Shown here piece after piece: positions 1-63,720 of a stretch of DNA of 64,000 nucleotides; position 1 is the stretch's first letter, and each line of letters starts with the position of its first letter. Both the position numbers and the translations under genes were made by a program. Source of the DNA: Rhina ancylostomus (Eukaryota); the NCBI GenBank assembly GCA_030265395.1, contig JARFYF010000094.1, forward strand, positions 33,749,836 to 33,813,835, written 5' to 3'. The notes beneath the pieces were generated by a model. It was not told where the DNA came from and ran no database searches. It saw only the letters and a program-made list of their open reading frames with translations.

Positions 1-499
1 GAGTGATCGCTCCCTTCCTGTTTCTGACTTCCACCCATGCTGACTCAGGACATCCTCCCTTTCTACAGCTGTGACACTGTCCCTGATCAGTAAAACCACT
101 CCCTCACCTCTTTTACCTGTGTCCCTGTCCCTTTTGAAATATCTAAACCCCAGAATATCATAATTCAGCTTTCAATGACATTTGAACTGACTCCTCTTGT
201 TCTCAATATGCAAGTTTCATTAATATCTGACTGAACTGACGGAAGGCATACTTTCCAGTAATTTAGCAATAAGAAAAAGTAGGCAAGCCTCCTACAAGAG
301 AATTATACTTCCGAAGAAGCAAAAAAAACCAGCATTTCTAGTGATGGTGGAAAAGAAAAAAAATCAGTAATTGTGGTCTTCCAATCAACCAGCTCAATCA
401 ATGGAATTCATCAACTGTTCAGCAACTGGTTACTATTCCTCACATTACCTTAATGTTCAAAGCCCTTCAAAATGAGCTGCATAGTGGCAGTTTTATCAG

Positions 500-29900: not shown

Positions 29901-30447
29901 GACATGAGATTTATTAAGATTTGCTACCTCTTTGCAATGAAGGATTGTTTCATATAAATATTTAAGAAAATCTACATCTGTAGATATCAATATTGATACT
30001 TAGATTTGTATATTTCTTTATTCCACTATGTATCTTTTACCTACGTTTTAAACTTAGATAGTATCAGTATCTCTGACTACAAAATGAACTGTGTTTGAAT
30101 GTTCTCACTTTCAAAGTTCTTGCAAAGTCCTACTCTAACTAGAAGTGTACCAAATCTCAATTTGTCCCAATGTGTTGCAAGCTACTATCGAGGCATATTG
30201 CATCTGGAGATAAAAATTTTGGCTAGAGCCTTGCTTAATTTATGCAACATGTTCCACTATATTTTGTTTCAGCTCAAGTACTGTTTATTCTTAATGTAGC
30301 CATACTTTGGCAACAGATAACAAACTTCCACAGCACTGTCCCACATGAATCTGCAACTGTCAATTGTAATCAAAGTCCCTAACTGGAAGCTGAAAAAAAA
30401 TCCATAGTGCATGTCACGAATGTACAACCGAATCGCCAAAACAGTAA

Positions 30448-30501
30448 TCTATCTATCTATCTATCTATCTATATATATCTATATAGATATAGATATATAT
30501 A
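30448..30501. repeat. (ATCT)n/(TA)n microsatellite
   Basis: atctatctatctatctatctatctatatatatctatatagatatagatatatata. Confidence 0.9.
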
Positions 30502-33092
30502 GTAATTATTATATATTTAGTAATCTATACACATTGTGTGTCTCTGTGTATGTGTGTTCATATACATGGAGGCACATGGCAAACAAAATTTTCTAAATAA
30601 TGATTATCATTTGTGACTTAACTTGTTAAGAATGGAGTACAAGGCAGGTGATCCATATGATTCAGATGGTAAGACGCTTCACGGTTGCATCTTAATGCAA
30701 AAACATAAAGCGCTTTTGGACAGTGGAGGTTTCGGGGTCCCAAGTGACTGTTTTTTTTGAGGGGAGGGAAGAGGGTCACATTGTCTCCTTTATCATTTAG
30801 TTTTACTATTGTGCAGTTGCATGTGTACAGAAGCGAGAAGGCAAGCCCACCGCCTGGGCACACGGTTGAAAGGTTTCAGAGAAGCGGACCCTTGACAACG
30901 GCCCAGCAGAGGCTTTGTTTGATCTGCAAATGCTTCGTTGCTCTGGGTTGTCAAGGTTCGCTTCTTGCTGGCCTGTTTACTTCACTGCGATTTTCTCAGA
31001 CATTTGGTAATCCAAGATGAAGGAGGGCTGAATTCCACATTGTTTTCTTTTCGCTAAACATTAAACAGACCCTTACTTTGGATGCCTCCCCATAACCCCC
31101 CCCCCGAGATGCCCCAAGTAAATAACAACAACCGGATTGTGGGAGGGTTGCGAACGGCTGCCCCTGGGGATGAGGCAGCCTGGCTAATGTTATCACAAAT
31201 ACAGTTATTTGGGTGATTAATCTGCACTTCATCAAGCCCAGTACCTTGCTTCTACCGGTGTTCTTCTCTTTAAACTCCGCGGGCAAACACAAACAACTCA
31301 TTGTCCGCCCGGACAGCCGCCAAAACCTCGCAAGTCGGCGAAGTCGAGCGAACAACTTTCAGTCAGAAACTCGCGCGCGCCGCCCTCCCATTAAGAAGGG
31401 AACAAGGATAAAATATTTTGTTTTAAAATCTACTTTAATATAATGCATACGTACATGTTAATGATGAGTGTTTTTTTTTAAAAAATGAAGCATTGTTTTA
31501 TTCTCTGGTGTTTATTGCTCCAATTGACAGTGGCCGTGCTGAGACGGACAGCCGCATCTGACGTGCAGCCCCCGACTGACAGGCGAGTGTGAAGGAGGGT
31601 GGGGAGACCCATGGAGGTGTGCAAGATCTGACTAACTACCGGCATGACCACAGCGGAGAACCCTTGCGCTGCTCGGCTACCTGCATAGTCTTTCGGCGAC
31701 AAATTTTAAAAAAAGTCAAACAAGCACCAAGTTAACTACAAAGTAAGAGGGGGAGCACGCACAGCTCCCAGGGGCAGGCAGTGCAATGCCAGGCCCGGAA
31801 CGAGCACTTAGGGGAAAGCACGACCCCCACCAGCAACCCCGCGCTCTTCACCCAGCCGGCAGTGGGGGGGGGGGGGCGTCCATACGCCACCCTACTCATC
31901 CCCAAGCCCTGCATCGCTCCGGCCGGTGTCCCTGTACCACACACCTCACCTCAAGCAGAGCGGGGCGTTCAGCCGGGGGAAGCTATCTATCCTCCGATGA
32001 TAATGAATGAGCGAGCGGGGGCGGAGAGGGCGCTGGCCGGGACATTCGTTTTGGAACAGTCTGGTATTGTTTCTGGAAGTGGGGGGCTTGCGCTCACCCT
32101 CGCTGTCGGGGTGACTCCGGCCTTACACCCATTAACATTCCCGGCCGGCTGGAGCGTTAGGCCGTCTGATACAATGCAATACATTACAACTCTCCAGCAG
32201 ACAGCACTACTTTCTTAAAACAGCAGTAAGTTTAAACCGCCAGCGCTCTGGCTGCGGGCTTCTTACTTTGAGTACCGGAGCTTCCAGCGGCCAAAACTTG
32301 GAGAAAGTGGCGATGAAGTCTATTCGGGTCGCACTGAAGAGCTGAAGACACTAGGCATTGCAATAAACTTGATGTCCCCTTCCCCCAACCTCAATAAATA
32401 TCTGACACACAAAAAAAAACCTCAATGCAATGCAGTATGGAATGCTCAAACTATGACTAAATAGAATTGTGGAAATGTTGGAATCCGCATTTGCCCCATA
32501 ATTTTAATGACCTTCAATATAATTCGATGCTATCGCCCTCGTGTGATGCCCATCCAAACTCGCACGGGTCTTTTTGAAAGTACAGGATGAGAAAAAGTGA
32601 CAAGTTTCAGGAGTTCCCCCCCCCCCCTCCCCTCCTCTTCCCATGCGGTTCCTGCTGTGTGCCTATTCCCCCTACAGGAATGGTGTGATCCTGGAGAAGA
32701 GATTCCTCGATCCACAGCCTGTCAGGTCTCCGGCGAACTGCCGATCCTGCTCCTGCTTCTCAGCAAACTCGCAGAAAGAAACCTCACGCAACACAACTCC
32801 TTGAAACTGACCACACTCGCTAATAACCCCTTGCTGACCAAGCCAGAGAGTCCCGCGTCTCAATTGAGACACAAACCACGGTCCCCCTTGGCCAGCGCAT
32901 TTTTCTTGTACAGAGCCAATGCAAATTGTTTATGCCCGAGTCGAAACTCACTTTCACAAACAACAATATTTTTTTTGCAAACACCCCAAACTGCACGTGG
33001 GGCTTGGAGGAAATCAAAGTCAAGCCAAGCAGAAACAGTTAATCTAAAAGCGAACAGGGGCAGGGAGAGAAAAGAATCAAATTTAAACTTAC

Positions 33093-33140
33093 CAGTTGGT
33101 ACAGCTTTAGATTGTTGGGTAACCAGAAGATAATTTGACC
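33093..33140 (-). other. Candidate 48-nt exon
   Basis: Acceptor tgtgtgttgcAG| at 33142-33141 and consensus donor ctg|GTaagt at 33092-33087. Confidence 0.55.
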
Positions 33141-33295
33141 CTGCAACACACATGCGATTGTGTACGAGAAAGCATGCAACAAGCACACAATAAATAACAA
33201 TATATTACTCCGCTCTGGCACTACGTTGTGGAGCTGCCGCTTTCCAAAGACACAAAAATCTGCCTGGTGCAACTAAGCAGCCGGATTGAACTCAC

Positions 33296-33445
33296 ACTTG
33301 ATGGGATCCTTTCCTATCCTGCTGCCGCGCGTTACCCCACTCTTCATTATTGAGTATTCTACAGAACTTAATGAGTCTTGGGGGGGGGGACAGAGAATAC
33401 AAATCGCGGAGTTGGATGTTGTTATTTTTTGCTGCGAGCTGCCTC
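33296..33445 (-). other. Candidate first exon (5' boundary unknown)
   Basis: Donor caagt|GTgagt at 33295-33290. It lies just downstream (minus strand) of the CRE/forkhead motifs and 155 nt from the 48-nt exon. Confidence 0.45.
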
Positions 33446-33446
33446 C

Positions 33447-33476
33447 TGACGTCATATCCACCTGCTGTGTAAACAA
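33447..33476. promoter_or_regulatory. Compact motif cluster: full CRE, E-box, forkhead/FOXO site
   Basis: TGACGTCA at 33447-33454, CACCTG at 33459-33464 and GTAAACAA at 33469-33476, all within 30 bp inside the CpG island. Confidence 0.5.
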
Positions 33477-33725
33477 CATGTATCAGGGCTTTAAGGGGGG
33501 AAAGCTGGTCTAGGATCGGAGCTTTGAGCACAGGCAGTTAGGGTGCACCGGTGCAATTTTGGCGTTAACGCCAAAATTATAAACAACCATAAACCCCGAC
33601 GGTGTCATTCGGGCTGTGAAGGAGCTCGACCCAGTGAAAGTGATTGTGTAAAAAGTGAAAGAGTGTGTGTGTGTGTGTTTCTTAACAGACAGCTGGGCCA
33701 AGGAAGCGACTCCGAGAGGCGGCAG

Positions 33726-33766
33726 CGCTCCGCTCGGTTCGGCTCCGCTCGGCACGGCTCGCTCGG
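33726..33766. repeat. Degenerate GC-rich pentamer repeat (GCTCG/GCTCC/GTTCG), truncated by a gap
   Basis: cgctccgctcggttcggctccgctcggcacggctcgctcgg followed by Ns. Confidence 0.7.
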
Positions 33767-36700
33767 NNNNNNNNNNNNNNNNNNNNNNNNNNNNNNNNNN
33801 NNNNNNNNNNNNNNNNNNNNNNNNNNNNNNNNCAACCCTGTCAGGAAGTGGAAAGTGTCAATATTTAGAGTGCCAAACCTACTCTTATCTACTTCACCGA
33901 CTCTATATAAAAAAAACACGGACGATCTGGAAGTGTCGAACCACTAATGTGCCTTATTTTTCTGTCTCTCATTCAGTAACCGCGGCTATGTTCAAGGGTT
34001 ATTTATTATTTTACAAAGGAAAGAAATAACAAAAGTTCAGTTGGAAGGGGTAAGATGTAGAGGGTAAAGTTTATAACTTGTGATACATGTCACTGTTTTT
34101 AATGACTTGTTGTACACATCTGGTTGTATCATTTCAGCTCTTTGATGAATGGGAAAGATGCTCTTTGATATGATTGTCTAGGTGTAATCAGCTCTGAACT
34201 CCACCATCGTGGAGTATGACACTAGCCTTCAAACCTTTAATCGCCTTTTAAGACCTATCTTCTGATACATTCTTACTCTGCGTATTAAGGGAATTGATAT
34301 ATAACTCTCTCCGAAACAATCGAGCACACGAAACTGCGACAATTTTTTTCCTTGATAGCCTTATAATAAAAACATTAATTACGAACCCGATGGGGCGATT
34401 TTTCTTTTCTTGAAAAATGCTTGCGAACCGGTTCAGTAGTCCAATTAACACTTCTAGAACGTAACATTAATCTGCAATTTAACTGAAATCTTTCTGAAAC
34501 CTTGCGTGTCCTTGATCAAGGACTGAAATGCAGAGATATAAATTTATTTATAAATGACGCTTAATTTATTACAGGGGGCATCGGTGGCCGTGCTGAAGAG
34601 TGGCGGATTTCTTTCAAGTCTCCGTTCTACTGAGAGATGGATTTGTGCAAACGGAGAGCTTGGGACGCCATCCCCTGGTTATAAAAGCATCGGGAAAAGC
34701 CAAGGAGAAAATAATGTGTAAAGACAGTATTATTTGTGTGGGATCCGATGCAGAATTAAATGTTACGATGTTATAAATATATATTCATCTTGCTTGAAGG
34801 CGTCCTGATCATACAATGAACAAAAATAATCAAAATCTGAGTCCGAATCATATTACATTTATTGTCATGTTTAGGTTTAATTGCAAATATGTAATAAACG
34901 CTGTTACTAAAATTAAGTTTACATGCACTAAAAGGATGATTCACAACCCGTTTTACAATAACTCGTGCTTTTATAAAAGTATTAAAATGGAATTTCTACG
35001 CAACGTTTGAAACTTCGGGTCGCGGAACTTCCTGTAGTTCTCTCTAGCCCGCCCGAATGGTGGTCTATTTCGCATCAAATAAATTGAAATAGGTTATTGT
35101 CAAAAGATGGGAGCCGAAAATATTTGGGATATTTTTCAATCCCGAACGAATAGCTGTAGTGGAAAGTAATCGAGTTCGTTTCGATTGCACTTTCCTGAAT
35201 CCTTCCCGAACATACTTACAATTCCGTTTCCACTGGCTCATCTTACGGCTTACCTGAAGGAGTGCGCTGGCAGTTCAATGCGAATTGTGAAGACCCGCGG
35301 AACTTTCGGAGAACAGCAAGGACATTTAGCGATATTCAGCTCAGATTATTGGATTTAGCAGGCTGCTGTTTTGTTTTGTGTGAGAATGCAAAACTGTGAG
35401 AGCAAAGTGAAGTTAAGAGGTAGCATACACATAAGGGGTAGTAATAAACACATCTCGAATGTAACCTAAATGTTGAACTTGATTGCAAGCTTAACCCAAT
35501 TATGATTTCTCAATACCTCGTATGCTCTTCTTCACGTTGTTTAAAAGAGTCAATTTCGTATTTAAATAATCACACCTCCAATTCACTTCATCGTTATATA
35601 GTTACATTTTTCCACTAATATCCACCTAGCACCGAGCTATGTCCTAAAATGTTAAATGTTCAATGTGAAATAAAAATGGAAACAATTCAGGCTTTGTTTT
35701 TAACTGAGTTTAACTAAACATTAAACACCTTGTGGATAAATCCACGTCTATTATTACCATGCGCTCATTCAAAACTAACTCCCCTCTTGTTCAAGGTTAT
35801 TTTAAGAAAAACGGTAAAGACTTAAAATGAAATCAGATAAATGGGCTTTCGCATACTCTATTCCAATCGTTCAAGTCTCCGTGGTACTTACGGTTGCAAA
35901 GTAATTGGATTTTATTTCAGACGGGGATATTATAAAGATTTTATGAAAAGATTTGTTCATTTAGTAAGAGTGCTGCCCTTTNNNNNNNNNNNNNNNNNNN
36001 NNNNNNNNNNNNNNNNNNNNNNNNNNNNNNNNNNNNNNNNNNNNNNNNNNNNNNNNNNNNNNNNNNNNNNNNNNNNNNNNNTCATTTAGTAAGCGTGCTG
36101 CCCTTTCACCGTCTGACACATCTGGAGTATTCAAGAGAAGTGTGCATCTCGGTGAGCGAACACTTTTAGAATAGTGTTGTACTCTGGGTTTTCCTGATCC
36201 CTGTATTTGTTCAGGTATGTACCATTTTGTAAAAAAAATTGTTAAAAGTACTACAATTGCCTGGATGCATCAGAGGGAGCATGATAACCTTTGTGAAGAG
36301 GCATCGGCAATGTCGCAGAAATTGGCGTGAGGTTTTTTGGGGGATCCGTCAGCGTGGATGTTTAACTCGGTAGCCTCTCAGATGGGGTCACTCAGCTGCA
36401 TCGGTATCACGGGCTTAAGGACATTCGGTGTATCAATTATCCTCGTTATGTATAATCTTTATACGCGTGGCCTCGCAGTAGTATGTTCACTTATCTATAT
36501 CGGCTATCATTAATACAGTTATTTACCTGTACAGTCATTTACCTGTATGGACCTGTATTGTAACTCTGTACTAGGAATGGCTTTCACAAGTGTTGTCGGT
36601 AAGCAGTATGGACTGTCAGATGTAGAGCCACCCGACGTACAGATTATTAACCTTTGCTTGCCACATTCCGGTCCTGCTACAGCAAAGACGGTTCAGCAGT

Positions 36701-58244: not shown

Positions 58245-58378
58245 GGACACAAGAGACTGCTGATGCTGGAATATGGAGCAACAAACCATCTGCTGGAAGA
58301 ACTCAGCAGGTCAAGCAGCACCTGTGAGAGGAAAGGAATTGTCAATGTTTCTGGTTGAAACCCTGCATCAGGCCTGAG
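58245..58378. mobile_element. Penelope-like-element terminal fragment with degenerate hammerhead
   Basis: acacaagagactgctgatgctggaa..gctggaagaactcagcaggtcaagcagca is homologous to 60882-61112. The minus strand reads ctgatgcagggtttcaaccagaaacattgac. Confidence 0.6.
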
Positions 58379-58429
58379 GAAATTCAGGAGAGGGCATCAG
58401 GAAATTCTGGAAGTCCAGGGGTAGGGGAG

Positions 58430-59905: not shown

Positions 59906-60881
59906 CTCTTCATTCAGGGAAGACAGCATGACCCAGCAGCATATTGACAGAAAAGTCACCCCATTAATTTAACTGCCATCCTGCTCTGTTTCTAGAACAG
60001 ATGGGGTTAGTATAAATCGTGGACTCTATTTTGCTAAGCATTCATCTCTGATTTCTTGCTGATCTGCCTATCATCAGCCTGTTCCTAATGAAACCTACAG
60101 TAGATCTCAGAACACTGCAGACAATGGGAAATAAATTCTTTTATGGTTGTCAGCACTGAATGTGTGTGTGAAAATCAGCTGCCAGCTATCCTTGCCTCCC
60201 ACATATAGTTTCATAGNNNNNNNNNNAACAGAGCCACGTATGCAGATATGAGCATTCCTGGTCGCCTGCACTCATACAAGTGTCTATTTCCTCCAGTATT
60301 TTGTGTACGTTGCTCCAGATTTCCAGCATCTGCAGTCTCTCTTGTGTCTCCGACATGGTTGGGGTGAGCTAGTCCCAGCAACTTTCCTTCACCCTGACCA
60401 AACACACACTCATCTCGTAATGTCTTTTCAACCTTCTCTGGTCTTAAATTGTTTAACTTTCTTCCGTTGCTCAGCAAATCTGTTCAGTTAGTCAGCAGCG
60501 CCACATAAATACCCAGGAAAGCTTTAGCTTTGTATTGAAATAGGATATCCTCTGCTGGAGTGCGGCATAGGAAATCTGTGTTAGGAAAGGAAAATCTACC
60601 CTTTTCCAAATCATCCAGTGATCTCATATAAAGGATATCTTTCTGGATACCAGGTCTCGCGATAGTTTATCAATGTTAACTGGATACAGGGAACAACTGC
60701 TGCATGGAGAGGGAAGGCACCCCCAGTTTTATGTATATTTCAGACTAGCAACCTGTTGTCAACTGCTGGGCACTGGTATTGCCCAGGTGACCACCTTTTC
60801 ACATTTATAAATCAGGACACAGGCAACGTAAAGAGATTATCAGGGGGTGGGAGATGAGGGAGAAGGTGCATGGTTGGGGTG

Positions 60882-61112
60882 ACGCACACACAAAGTGCTG
60901 GAGGAACTCAGCAGGTCAGGCAGCATCTATGGAGGGAAATGAACAGTCGATGTTTCGGGCCGAGACCCTTCCTCAGGACTGGTGAAGGGTCTTAGCCCAT
61001 AACGTAGACTGTTCATTTCTCTCCATAGTTGCCTCCTGACCTGCTGATTTCCTCCAGCATTTTGTGTGCGTTGCTCCAGATTTCCGGCATCTGCAGTCTC
61101 TCTTTTGTCTCC
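60882..61112. mobile_element. Penelope-derived fold-back (inverted pseudo-LTR) element
   Basis: Inverted arms of ~88 bp (60882-60971 and 60984-61071), flanked by catggttggggtga (60869-60882) and catggtcagggtga (61115-61128). Confidence 0.7.
60944..60981 (-). ncRNA. Minimal type-I hammerhead ribozyme motif (Penelope-associated type)
   Basis: The minus strand reads CAGUC-CUGAGGA-A-GGGU(CUCG)GCCC-GAAA-C-AUC^GACUG. It has stem I CAGUC/GACUG, a CUGANGA core, a 4-bp stem II, GAAA and an NUH triplet. Confidence 0.7.
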
Positions 61113-61599
61113 GACATGGTCAGGGTGAGCTTGTCCCAGTAATTTTCCTTCACCCTGTCACCCACCACTGGGATACAGTTTTAGAAGCCACATTCCACAA
61201 TCCTCAGCTGCTGATCTATACCTGCACAGGTCACACTGCAGTTACCATGACCTGGCCTTTGCAAGCAAATCTCAAGGAAATGACTGGTGTTCAGTTACAT
61301 GAGCTCATGTGAGGTAAAACAACATCTGCACTCCCATGTCTGTGCATGTGAATGTGGAATCTTGAGCGAAGTATTGGCAGCTCACATCAGGNNNNNNNNN
61401 NNNNNNNNNNNNNNNNNNNNNNNNNNNNNNNNNNNNNNNNNNNNNNNNNNNNNNNNNNNNNNNNNNNNNNNNNNNNNNNATTTCCCTTTGATTGGAATGA
61501 AAGCTGTGAAACCTTTGTCACTTTAAGAAGATATTTTGATAGGTTCTGTGCAAAAATAACATTTTTCTTACCAATATTTTTTAAGACTCTGTAATGGAT

Positions 61600-63127: not shown

Positions 63128-63720
63128 TGTGGCGACTTACCGTTCACGAACCAGCTCCCACGATCGCGAGTGTTGTCGGAGGCCCCGACACAAGATGGTG
63201 CGGGGCACTTCTTCTTTGTTGGGCTAGTGGAGCCTGCGCGTGGGAAGGTCACGTGACCCGCGCGTGATGTCAGCGCGGGAACTGTGTTTATTAAAGGGGC
63301 AGTGCACCCCAGTCATTCATTCGACTCTTGGACTCCAAACAAGTGTCCCGTGTCTTTATTCNNNNNNNNNNNNNNNNNNNNNNNNNNNNNNNNNNNNNNN
63401 NNNNNNNNNNNNNNNNNNNNNNNNNNNNNNNNNNNNNNNNNNNNNNNNNNNNNNNNNNNNNGGGTTATGTGGCGACTTACCGTTCACGAACCGGTTCCCA
63501 CAATCGCGAGCGTCGTCGGAGGCCCCGACACAAGATGGTGCGGGGCACTCCTTCTTCGTTGGGCTTGTGGAGCCCGCGCGGGGGAAGGTCACGTGACCTG
63601 CATGTGACGTCAGCGCGGGAACTGTGTTTATTAAAGGGGCAGCACACCCCGGTCATTCATTCGAATCTTGGACTTCAAACAAGTGTCCCGTGTCTTTATT
63701 CAGTGTAGCTAGCCGCTACA
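63128..63720 (+). mobile_element. LTR retrotransposon (Gypsy-like): two ~253-bp LTRs with the interior hidden in an N gap
   Basis: Direct repeats at 63128-63361 (cut by the gap) and 63468-63720. Termini are TGTGGCG..CGCTACA, the 4-bp TSD ATGT lies at 63124-63127 and 63721-63724, and a G-run (gggtta) precedes the right LTR. Confidence 0.85.

What the first reader, a model, noticed from the sequence alone, without database searches (positions are those of the whole stretch)
60944..61011. Back-to-back minimal hammerhead ribozyme motifs in a Penelope-derived hairpin
Seen: minus strand 60981-60944 reads CAGUC CUGAGGA A GGGUCUCGGCCC GAAA C AUC^GACUG. This has an intact CUGANGA/GAAA core, a perfect 5-bp stem I, a stem II and essentially no stem III. 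The opposite arm (+, 60979-61011) is a decayed mirror copy, CUGGUGA A GGGUCUUAGCCC AUAA CGUA GACUG, which has lost core bases but keeps the palindromic ACGU. Known: Penelope-like elements carry minimal type-I hammerheads in their pseudo-LTRs, whose palindromic stem III favours dimeric cleavage. Inference: the ancestral motif was ..GAAACGUC and the minus copy lost the G by CpG decay, so this copy may be weak or inactive. The family could still seed many ribozymes across elasmobranch genomes.
Basis: partly seen in the sequence, partly recalled or inferred. Interest (0 to 1): 0.7.

Follow-up and report, generated by a model that had tools for sequence, protein, structure and literature searches.

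The report
Dead Penelope transposon-end ribozyme hairpin
This is a short leftover of a Penelope-type jumping gene, likely from a ray or shark, inserted as two end pieces joined back to back; one piece still shows that family's known miniature self-cutting RNA motif, but it is damaged and predicted to be trapped in a hairpin, so it is an ordinary, likely inactive copy.

Summary
The motif is real. The minus strand 60981-60944 has a minimal type-I hammerhead layout, and the ancestral GAAACGUC form occurs 65 times exactly in this genome (control 0). It belongs to a ~230-bp insertion of two 5'-truncated pseudo-LTR ends of a Neptune-like Penelope element, joined head to head between 14-bp target-site duplications. 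Long copies lead upstream into RT and GIY-YIG coding remains. Roughly 400,000 such ends are estimated genome-wide; 19 adjacent head-to-head pairs occur among 201 sampled hits.

This copy is likely dead: CpG decay broke the dimer palindrome, and 10 nt of native upstream sequence abolishes the predicted fold. The plus arm is no second ribozyme: it is cut inside its own core, and its CUGGUGA most likely comes from the inversion junction. Copies decay neutrally (core 6.9% vs flank 7.2%); subfamily consensuses keep most of the fold.

Both motif and inverted arrangement are in print. One side result: 19 of 77 copy 5' ends fall within -7..-3 of the core, not at the cleavage site, suggesting a defined RNA start. 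The scan found this family before in other shark or ray genomes.

The parts
60869..60882 (+). Left target-site duplication (14 bp)
   Evidence: 12 of 14 identical to 61115-61128; the two differences (TG vs CA) fit decay of one CpG; read from the sequence
60884..60981 (-). Inverted pseudo-LTR end without tail (about -6 to +92 of the family, C3 = 0); carries the hammerhead motif
60944..60981 (-). Minimal type-I hammerhead motif: core intact, stem I 5 bp, stem II 4 bp, loop-3 palindrome lost (ACGU to ACAU at 60951); predicted cut 3' of C60949
60974..60992 (+). Head-to-head junction; the arms share 60979-60981; the same 19-nt junction recurs at 30 places in the genome
60979..61111 (+). Primary pseudo-LTR end, 5'-truncated inside the hammerhead core (no 5' stem I strand; A6 replaced; GAAA reads AUAA), with tail
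61072..61111 (+). About 40-nt Penelope 'tail', present on this arm only
   Evidence: tail described in PMC8557442
61115..61128 (+). Right target-site duplication, after 3 extra bases
60887..61068 (.). Fold-back of the two arms: 90 nt each, 84% complementary
   Evidence: -149.3 kcal/mol for 60870-61130, z -15

Best explanation
The stretch is a ~230-bp insertion of two 5'-truncated ends of a Penelope-like retrotransposon joined head to head between target-site duplications, and its hammerhead motif is inherited from the parent element and likely inactive here. Shown: the structure, the family link to RT and GIY-YIG remains, the junction, neutral decay of copies. Inferred: in the once-active parent the motif was the minimal hammerhead of the pseudo-LTR, cutting after GUC only as a dimer (two ACGU palindromes pairing as stem III) or with help from the element's protein. 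Inferred: the element's RT primed at the tail (+133) for one arm and near +92 for the other, stopped within the hammerhead, and the two short cDNAs were joined through the 3-bp CTG/CAG microhomology at integration. Predicted: any read-through RNA meets the antisense arm first and folds into a 90-bp hairpin, so neither arm forms a hammerhead.
For: Family: 201 profile hits in 1,100,771 non-N bases of 120 stretches, 0 in the reversed control. Upstream of the motif in long copies: the endonuclease C-terminus (L016) and RT-thumb-C-X4-C-X2-C-GIY-YIG remains (L034); Pfam RVT_1 E 8e-4 and GIY-YIG E 0.011, both under the curated cut-off; 107 protein relatives, best named ones from rays and sharks, long ones carrying RVT_1 and some GIY-YIG. 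Arrangement: 19 head-to-head, 1 tail-to-tail, 1 tandem neighbour pair among 201 hits; 27 of 92 copies picked by a downstream pattern have an adjacent inverted partner. 3' ends are bimodal, about +86..105 and +128..134, as the two RT start sites reported for an anole element would give (PMC11167929). Neutral decay: non-CpG core 35/510 vs flank 44/612 mismatches, p 0.91; CpG core sites 84/204. Trapping: stem I and II probabilities 0.98 and 0.96 alone, 0.00 with 10 or more native upstream bases. Palindrome: 6-mer self-duplex -3.1 (ancestral) vs +2.8 kcal/mol (this copy).
Against: No full-length pLTR-ORF-pLTR copy was recovered, so the motif's place at the 5' end of the ORF is taken from other Penelope elements. 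Pfam hits on the decayed pieces are weak, and three other pieces gave no RT or GIY-YIG hit. Covariation is modest: score 0.241 vs 0.208 shuffled (10/500), and only one clear two-sided change, C-G to U-A at the core-closing pair, which is one event between subfamilies. The minus arm's core letters and both stems are still intact. Cleavage was not assayed and folding is computed.
Confidence: 0.88

Rival explanations
1. The minus-arm motif is a working or host-used ribozyme that cuts a host transcript or pairs with other genomic copies in trans.
For: Core letters, stem I and stem II are intact. About 3,500 exact-core motifs above control exist genome-wide and could supply partners.
Against: Palindrome lost; fold abolished in context; no sign of selection on copies. 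A single minimal motif showed no cleavage and dimers only low activity in PMC4209133. The anole motif needed protein, and no reads ended at its cut site (PMC11167929).
Confidence: 0.04
2. The short units are an independent non-autonomous element (retrozyme or SINE-like) with its own master copies, and the hairpin form is itself mobile.
For: Most copies are 90-140 nt; 5' ends pile up; the same junction recurs 30 times.
Against: Copies are dispersed (1 tandem pair among 201 hits), unlike retrozymes. Ends are not at the cleavage site. The 12 fetched same-junction loci differ in arm length, tail side and subfamily bases, as independent events would. Long copies run on into the ORF.
Confidence: 0.06
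3. The hairpin, not the ribozyme, is the active part: such inverted pairs (about 17 per Mb in the sample) give double-stranded RNA for editing or small RNAs when transcribed.
For: 90-nt arms, 84% complementary, very stable fold; 19 pairs in 1.1 Mb.
Against: No expression data for this locus; no host gene was identified (4 window ORFs gave no Pfam hit). The microRNA-family matches are far below threshold (28 vs 100 bits). It would be a by-product, compatible with the best explanation.
Confidence: 0.1
4. The motif is a chance match or an assembly artefact.
For: The isolated fold is unremarkable (z -0.47); no Rfam hammerhead hit; the assembly has many N gaps.
Against: Counts against reversed controls; arms differ by 16% and are bounded by a target-site duplication; the motif fits the published consensus.
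Confidence: 0.01

Closest known systems
Minimal hammerheads (min-HHR) in pseudo-LTRs of metazoan Penelope-like elements (Cervera and De la Pena 2014, PMC4209133)
   Same: CUGANGA plus one extra base, G10.1-C11.1, GAAA, palindromic ACGU in place of helix III, short helix I. Mostly single dispersed motifs from truncated elements; pairs on opposite strands 100-700 bp apart were noted in Schistosoma, and one inverted copy in a bracovirus-borne element. The listed Acropora Neptune motif also has a 4-bp helix II.
   Different: No cartilaginous fish is in the table or alignment that I read. Scale is larger here (3669 exact-core matches, about 400,000 decayed ends, vs about 4,000 and 9,000 motifs in coelacanth and Xenopus). 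This copy has lost the palindrome. Two subfamilies carry core changes (U4A in part of A; A9C or a shifted extra base in D).
Inverted pseudo-LTR insertions of EN+ Penelope-like elements (Arkhipova 2013, PMC3846280; Craig 2021, PMC8557442)
   Same: Inverted 5'-truncated copy adjacent to the 5' end, head to head; 30-40-bp tail at one end only; short overlap between arms; target-site duplication.
   Different: Here both arms are only 100-135 nt and the junction lies inside the hammerhead; no ORF is left in this insertion.
Neptune clade of Penelope-like elements
   Same: RT, then a C-X2-5-C-X2-C linker, then C-terminal GIY-YIG (L034, L035; 15 of 29 relatives over 700 aa match such a pattern); defining motif per PMC8557442.
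   Different: No tree against reference Neptune and Nematis elements was built; Nematis shares the linker.
PAc (Poseidon of the green anole; Frangieh 2024, PMC11167929)
   Same: Hammerhead just upstream of the tail; two RT start sites matching two genomic 3' ends.
   Different: Different clade. Activity there was shown with purified protein; here nothing was assayed. In the parts I read, that paper does not report a pile-up of 5' ends at the hammerhead.
Non-LTR retrozymes (PMC7229834; bioRxiv 10.64898/2026.07.22.740005)
   Same: Non-coding, type-I hammerhead, linked to Penelope pseudo-LTRs; reported in one chondrichthyan genome.
   Different: Retrozymes are tandem units, each with a hammerhead; these copies are dispersed or inverted.

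Membership tests
PLE minimal hammerhead (minus arm of this copy) | CUGANGA core followed by one extra unpaired base | tested here: met
   60976-60969; consensus
PLE minimal hammerhead (minus arm of this copy) | Helix II closed by G10.1-C11.1 | tested here: met
   4 bp; 87% of cells paired over 33 aligned copies
PLE minimal hammerhead (minus arm of this copy) | GAAA and U16.1-H17 | tested here: met
   60956-60953, U60950, C60949
PLE minimal hammerhead (minus arm of this copy) | Palindromic positions 15.2-16.2 for dimer stem III | tested here: not met
   CA here; CG in the family majority (31 and 33 of 51 copies; 65 exact ancestral copies)
PLE minimal hammerhead (minus arm of this copy) | Helix I of 3 bp or more | tested here: met
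   5 bp in isolation; predicted not to form in context
PLE minimal hammerhead (plus arm of this copy) | Intact core and helix I | tested here: not met
   CUGGUGA, AUAA, and two core-proximal stem I pairs missing
PLE minimal hammerhead (family) | Stem covariation with conserved core | tested here: inconclusive
   Four subfamily consensuses vary at N7, loop II and H17, with one C-G to U-A swap; score 0.241 vs 0.208, 10/500 shuffles; two subfamilies alter core bases, and C and D keep only 3 contiguous stem I pairs
PLE minimal hammerhead (family) | Self-cleavage as dimer or with protein | not testable with these tools
   needs an in vitro assay
EN+ Penelope-like element | RT and C-terminal GIY-YIG upstream of the pseudo-LTR end | tested here: met
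EN+ Penelope-like element | Inverted 5'-truncated copy, tail at one end, target-site duplication | tested here: met
EN+ Penelope-like element | Full-length partial tandem (pLTR-ORF-pLTR) | tested here: inconclusive
   Longest copy followed (L130) is 5'-truncated about 2.1 kb upstream of the motif; no wider hunt was made
Neptune clade | C-X2-5-C-X2-C linker between RT and endonuclease | tested here: met
   L034, L035
Neptune clade | RT phylogeny with reference elements | not tested
   no named reference set was at hand
Non-LTR retrozyme | Tandem units each with a complete hammerhead | tested here: not met
   1 tandem pair among 201 hits; this locus is inverted

The most novel reading that the evidence does not exclude
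The short copies record the element's RNA start. The transcript begins at the first bases of hammerhead stem I (an initiator-like YCAGTY that is also a splice-acceptor-like CAG). The RT primes internally at the two tail sites of the 5' pseudo-LTR and runs off that uncut RNA end, leaving tens of thousands of 100-140-nt solo copies. The genome would then be an in vivo record of Penelope internal priming on uncleaved RNA, with the hammerhead marking the RNA's 5' end rather than cutting the template.
Probability: 0.35. Interest if true: 0.45.

Novelty: new member of a known kind. Interest (0 to 1): 0.17.

Why it matters
The locus itself does not matter: it is one of several hundred thousand decayed ends. 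The family extends known Penelope hammerheads to a cartilaginous fish at very high copy number. Its many independent insertions give statistics on where the element's reverse transcription starts and stops, which is still poorly understood. If the 5'-end pile-up marks the RNA start, it supports the in vitro finding that these elements copy uncleaved RNA from internal sites, and gives a direct 5'-RACE target.

Tried and rejected
Rfam search: no hammerhead family; microRNA matches far below threshold, read as by-products of the hairpin.

Self-cleaved template as the source of short copies: 3 of 77 ends at +28/+29 and 4 of 49 at +28..+30, too near background to claim.

Spliced template with a shared first exon: the 80 nt upstream of the 19 peak copies match neither each other nor the element in sense, except L334. 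L334 is an internal deletion, not a true end, so the peak is 18 if it is dropped. Four of the 19 show inverted element pieces upstream, of which one search counted 2 as adjacent partners. A target-duplication-like match scored above the cut-off in 6 of 19 (null 4%), ending 3 to 20 nt before C3, so long carried-over host exons are not indicated.

Cap-derived extra G: G precedes 10 of 19 peak ends, of which one is explained by a junction; not tested further.

RNA evidence: no RNA holder listed on record. Contigs of 7 coded runs were laid; they hold related copies. No joint with intron-type ends appeared among the 15 shown in each call (480 and 81 more were not shown), which is no evidence either way.

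Dimer energy by full-structure evaluation failed (invalid value); only the 6-mer duplex was used. First clustering was confounded by truncation and redone on downstream columns. Pfam gave nothing relevant on three decayed ORF pieces and nothing on four window ORFs. The Lunse et al. dimer paper (PMC5785218) is not held; I know it only through the review PMC6765202.

Full report
Observation. It is the only match of a hammerhead descriptor on either strand of the window. It lies at the centre of an inverted repeat with arms 60887-60976 and 60979-61068, 84% complementary. Rfam has no hammerhead hit here, and the isolated fold is no better than shuffles, so the case rests on the family.

Anatomy. 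The insertion runs from about 60884 to 61114 between 14-bp duplications at 60869-60882 and 61115-61128, whose two differences fit decay of one CpG. The left arm is an inverted piece from about -6 to +92 (C3 = 0) without tail. The right arm runs from the core to +132 with a tail of about 40 nt. The arms share three bases at 60979-60981. The plus arm has no 5' stem I strand and reads CUGGUGA and AUAA. The G in CUGGUGA is what the inverted arm supplies: it occurs in 30 of 115 junctions of this type but in 194 of 5662 normal contexts (p about 1e-17). So it most likely comes from the junction, not from decay.

Family. The window lies in a 2.2-Gb genome. The exact ancestral 38-mer occurs 65 times (control 0) and the exact-core pattern 3669 times (control 149). 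A profile found 201 hits in 1,100,771 non-N bases of 120 stretches (the window, 8 neighbours and 111 round-coordinate stretches of large contigs; reversed control 0). That extrapolates to about 400,000 ends. Long copies continue upstream through a pyrimidine-rich region into the endonuclease C-terminus and RT remains with a C-X4-C-X2-C linker. Pfam matches on these decayed pieces are weak or absent, but the best named protein relatives come from rays and sharks at 62-75% identity, and long relatives carry RVT_1 and GIY-YIG. I read this as a Neptune-like element, likely in a ray; no tree was built.

Arrangement. Among the 201 hits, 19 neighbour pairs are head to head, 1 tail to tail and 1 tandem. 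Among 92 copies picked only by a 35-nt pattern downstream of the motif (from the first 90 of 2644 listed matches), 27 have an adjacent inverted partner. 3' ends fall in two groups, about +86..105 and +128..134. Craig 2021 (PMC8557442, passages) and Arkhipova 2013 (PMC3846280, passages) describe this inverted arrangement with a tail at one end. Frangieh 2024 (PMC11167929, parts 1-2 of 4; supplements not seen) ties the two ends to two internal RT start sites.

Is it a ribozyme? For the parent, likely yes. The motif fits the published consensus (PMC4209133: parts 1-3 of 4 of the text and parts 1-2 of 3 of supplement file 2; file 1 could not be searched). Clustering 127 of the 201 hits (those spanning the motif) gave four subfamilies. 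Their consensuses differ at N7, loop II and H17, and subfamily B swaps the core-closing pair from C-G to U-A. On 33 aligned real copies that pair shows 14 C-G and 8 U-A, and the overall score exceeds all but 10 of 500 shuffles; this is modest evidence from few events. Against a simple picture, part of subfamily A has U4A (14 of 37 at that column), D has C at position 9 (19 of 23), and C and D keep only three contiguous stem I pairs. Passages of PMC3088659 say some core variants stay active but did not show these two.

Are the copies active? Mostly not. In 51 family-A copies spanning the motif, non-CpG core bases differ from the majority at 35/510 and flank bases at 44/612 (p 0.91), while CpG-linked core bases, G12 among them, differ at 84/204. 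Eighteen keep the core, 12 also the palindrome, and 4 also both stems. This copy has lost the palindrome: the 6-mer self-duplex goes from -3.1 to +2.8 kcal/mol. Its stems form with probability 0.98 and 0.96 alone but 0.00 once 10 native upstream bases are included; the region folds into one long hairpin on either strand. Because the arms point away from each other, the antisense arm is always made first, and the two motifs can never sit in one RNA. A single minimal motif was inactive and dimers weak in PMC4209133; the anole motif cut only with protein and its cut was not needed for insertion.

Side result: where copies begin. Of the 92 downstream-picked copies, 77 had a usable 5' end (15 dropped for N gaps). 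Nineteen fall within -7..-3, against 2.1 expected from the surrounding 100 nt (Poisson p about 1e-12; 18 if an internal deletion is dropped). These copies rarely have an adjacent inverted partner (2 of 19 vs 18 of 29 for ends at 0..+45, p 7e-4; shorter inverted bits were seen in two more). The unbiased sample agrees more loosely: 22 of 49 family-A ends lie in -10..+9. The peak is at the 5' edge of stem I, not at the cleavage site. The sequence there is YCAGTY in all four subfamilies. It fits the initiator consensus (recalled, from no call) and also a splice acceptor after a pyrimidine tract; in D. virilis the intron ends at helix I and the promoter is internal with an initiator (PMC2377424, passages). 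No shared upstream exon was found. I favour run-off at an RNA start, at about 35%; RT drop-off or microhomology-guided joining remain open, and end calls near the peak carry a few bases of uncertainty.

What is in print. Searches, and term look-ups in three papers, found no paper on hammerheads in elasmobranch Penelope ends or on this pile-up. A 2026 preprint reports retrozymes in one chondrichthyan (part 1 of 5 and passages; its supplements are closed). Lunse et al. could not be read (known from passages of the review PMC6765202), and it or Repbase may already list this family. Earlier notes of this scan report the same kind of family in other shark or ray genomes, some with the sharp starts and the splice-like signal; my reading was on record before that look-up.

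Verdict. Real motif, right family, ordinary and likely dead copy; a new member of a known kind. Interest 0.17.

Noticed in passing
window 60286-60396 (+): A 111-nt, 92% identical duplicate of the right arm's 3' part plus 45 nt of its unique flank, 761 nt upstream. It shares one derived base with the arm and is bounded by a loose repeat, so it may be a local duplication or a re-mobilised read-through copy. The flank matched no other fetched locus.
   Followed up: partly
window 58247-58381 (-): A decayed copy of subfamily D (C at core position 9) with tail.
   Followed up: partly
subfamilies A and D, e.g. L119:9760-9897, L233:6242: Whole lineages carry core changes (U4A; A9C or a shifted extra base), so they may have spread with an altered or dead ribozyme.
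   Followed up: partly
family A, -31..-24 upstream of the core (L285, L295, L329, L277, L325, L313): Six of 77 5' ends cluster near a branch-point-like A at -31 in the pyrimidine tract; too few to judge.
   Followed up: no
G000 C7:74622926 and 74623096 (L064); C84:92118639 and 92118787: Same-strand motif pairs 150-170 bp apart; possible short tandems that could form a dimer, or assembly duplicates.
   Followed up: no
P0001, P0002, P0009: Ray and skate protein isoforms named after host genes contain this element's RT region, suggesting exonised or mis-annotated insertions.
   Followed up: no
L057 (translation, element-strand positions 447-842): A stretch beside an N gap translates like the start of a bacterial RND efflux transporter (resemblance recalled, not tested); possible contamination in the assembly.
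   Followed up: no
window 30001-34000: GC-richer segment (0.45-0.47 vs about 0.35) that may be a promoter island; three long frames there gave no Pfam hit.
   Followed up: partly
window 63128-63701: A 234-nt direct repeat, 92% identical, 340 nt apart.
   Followed up: no
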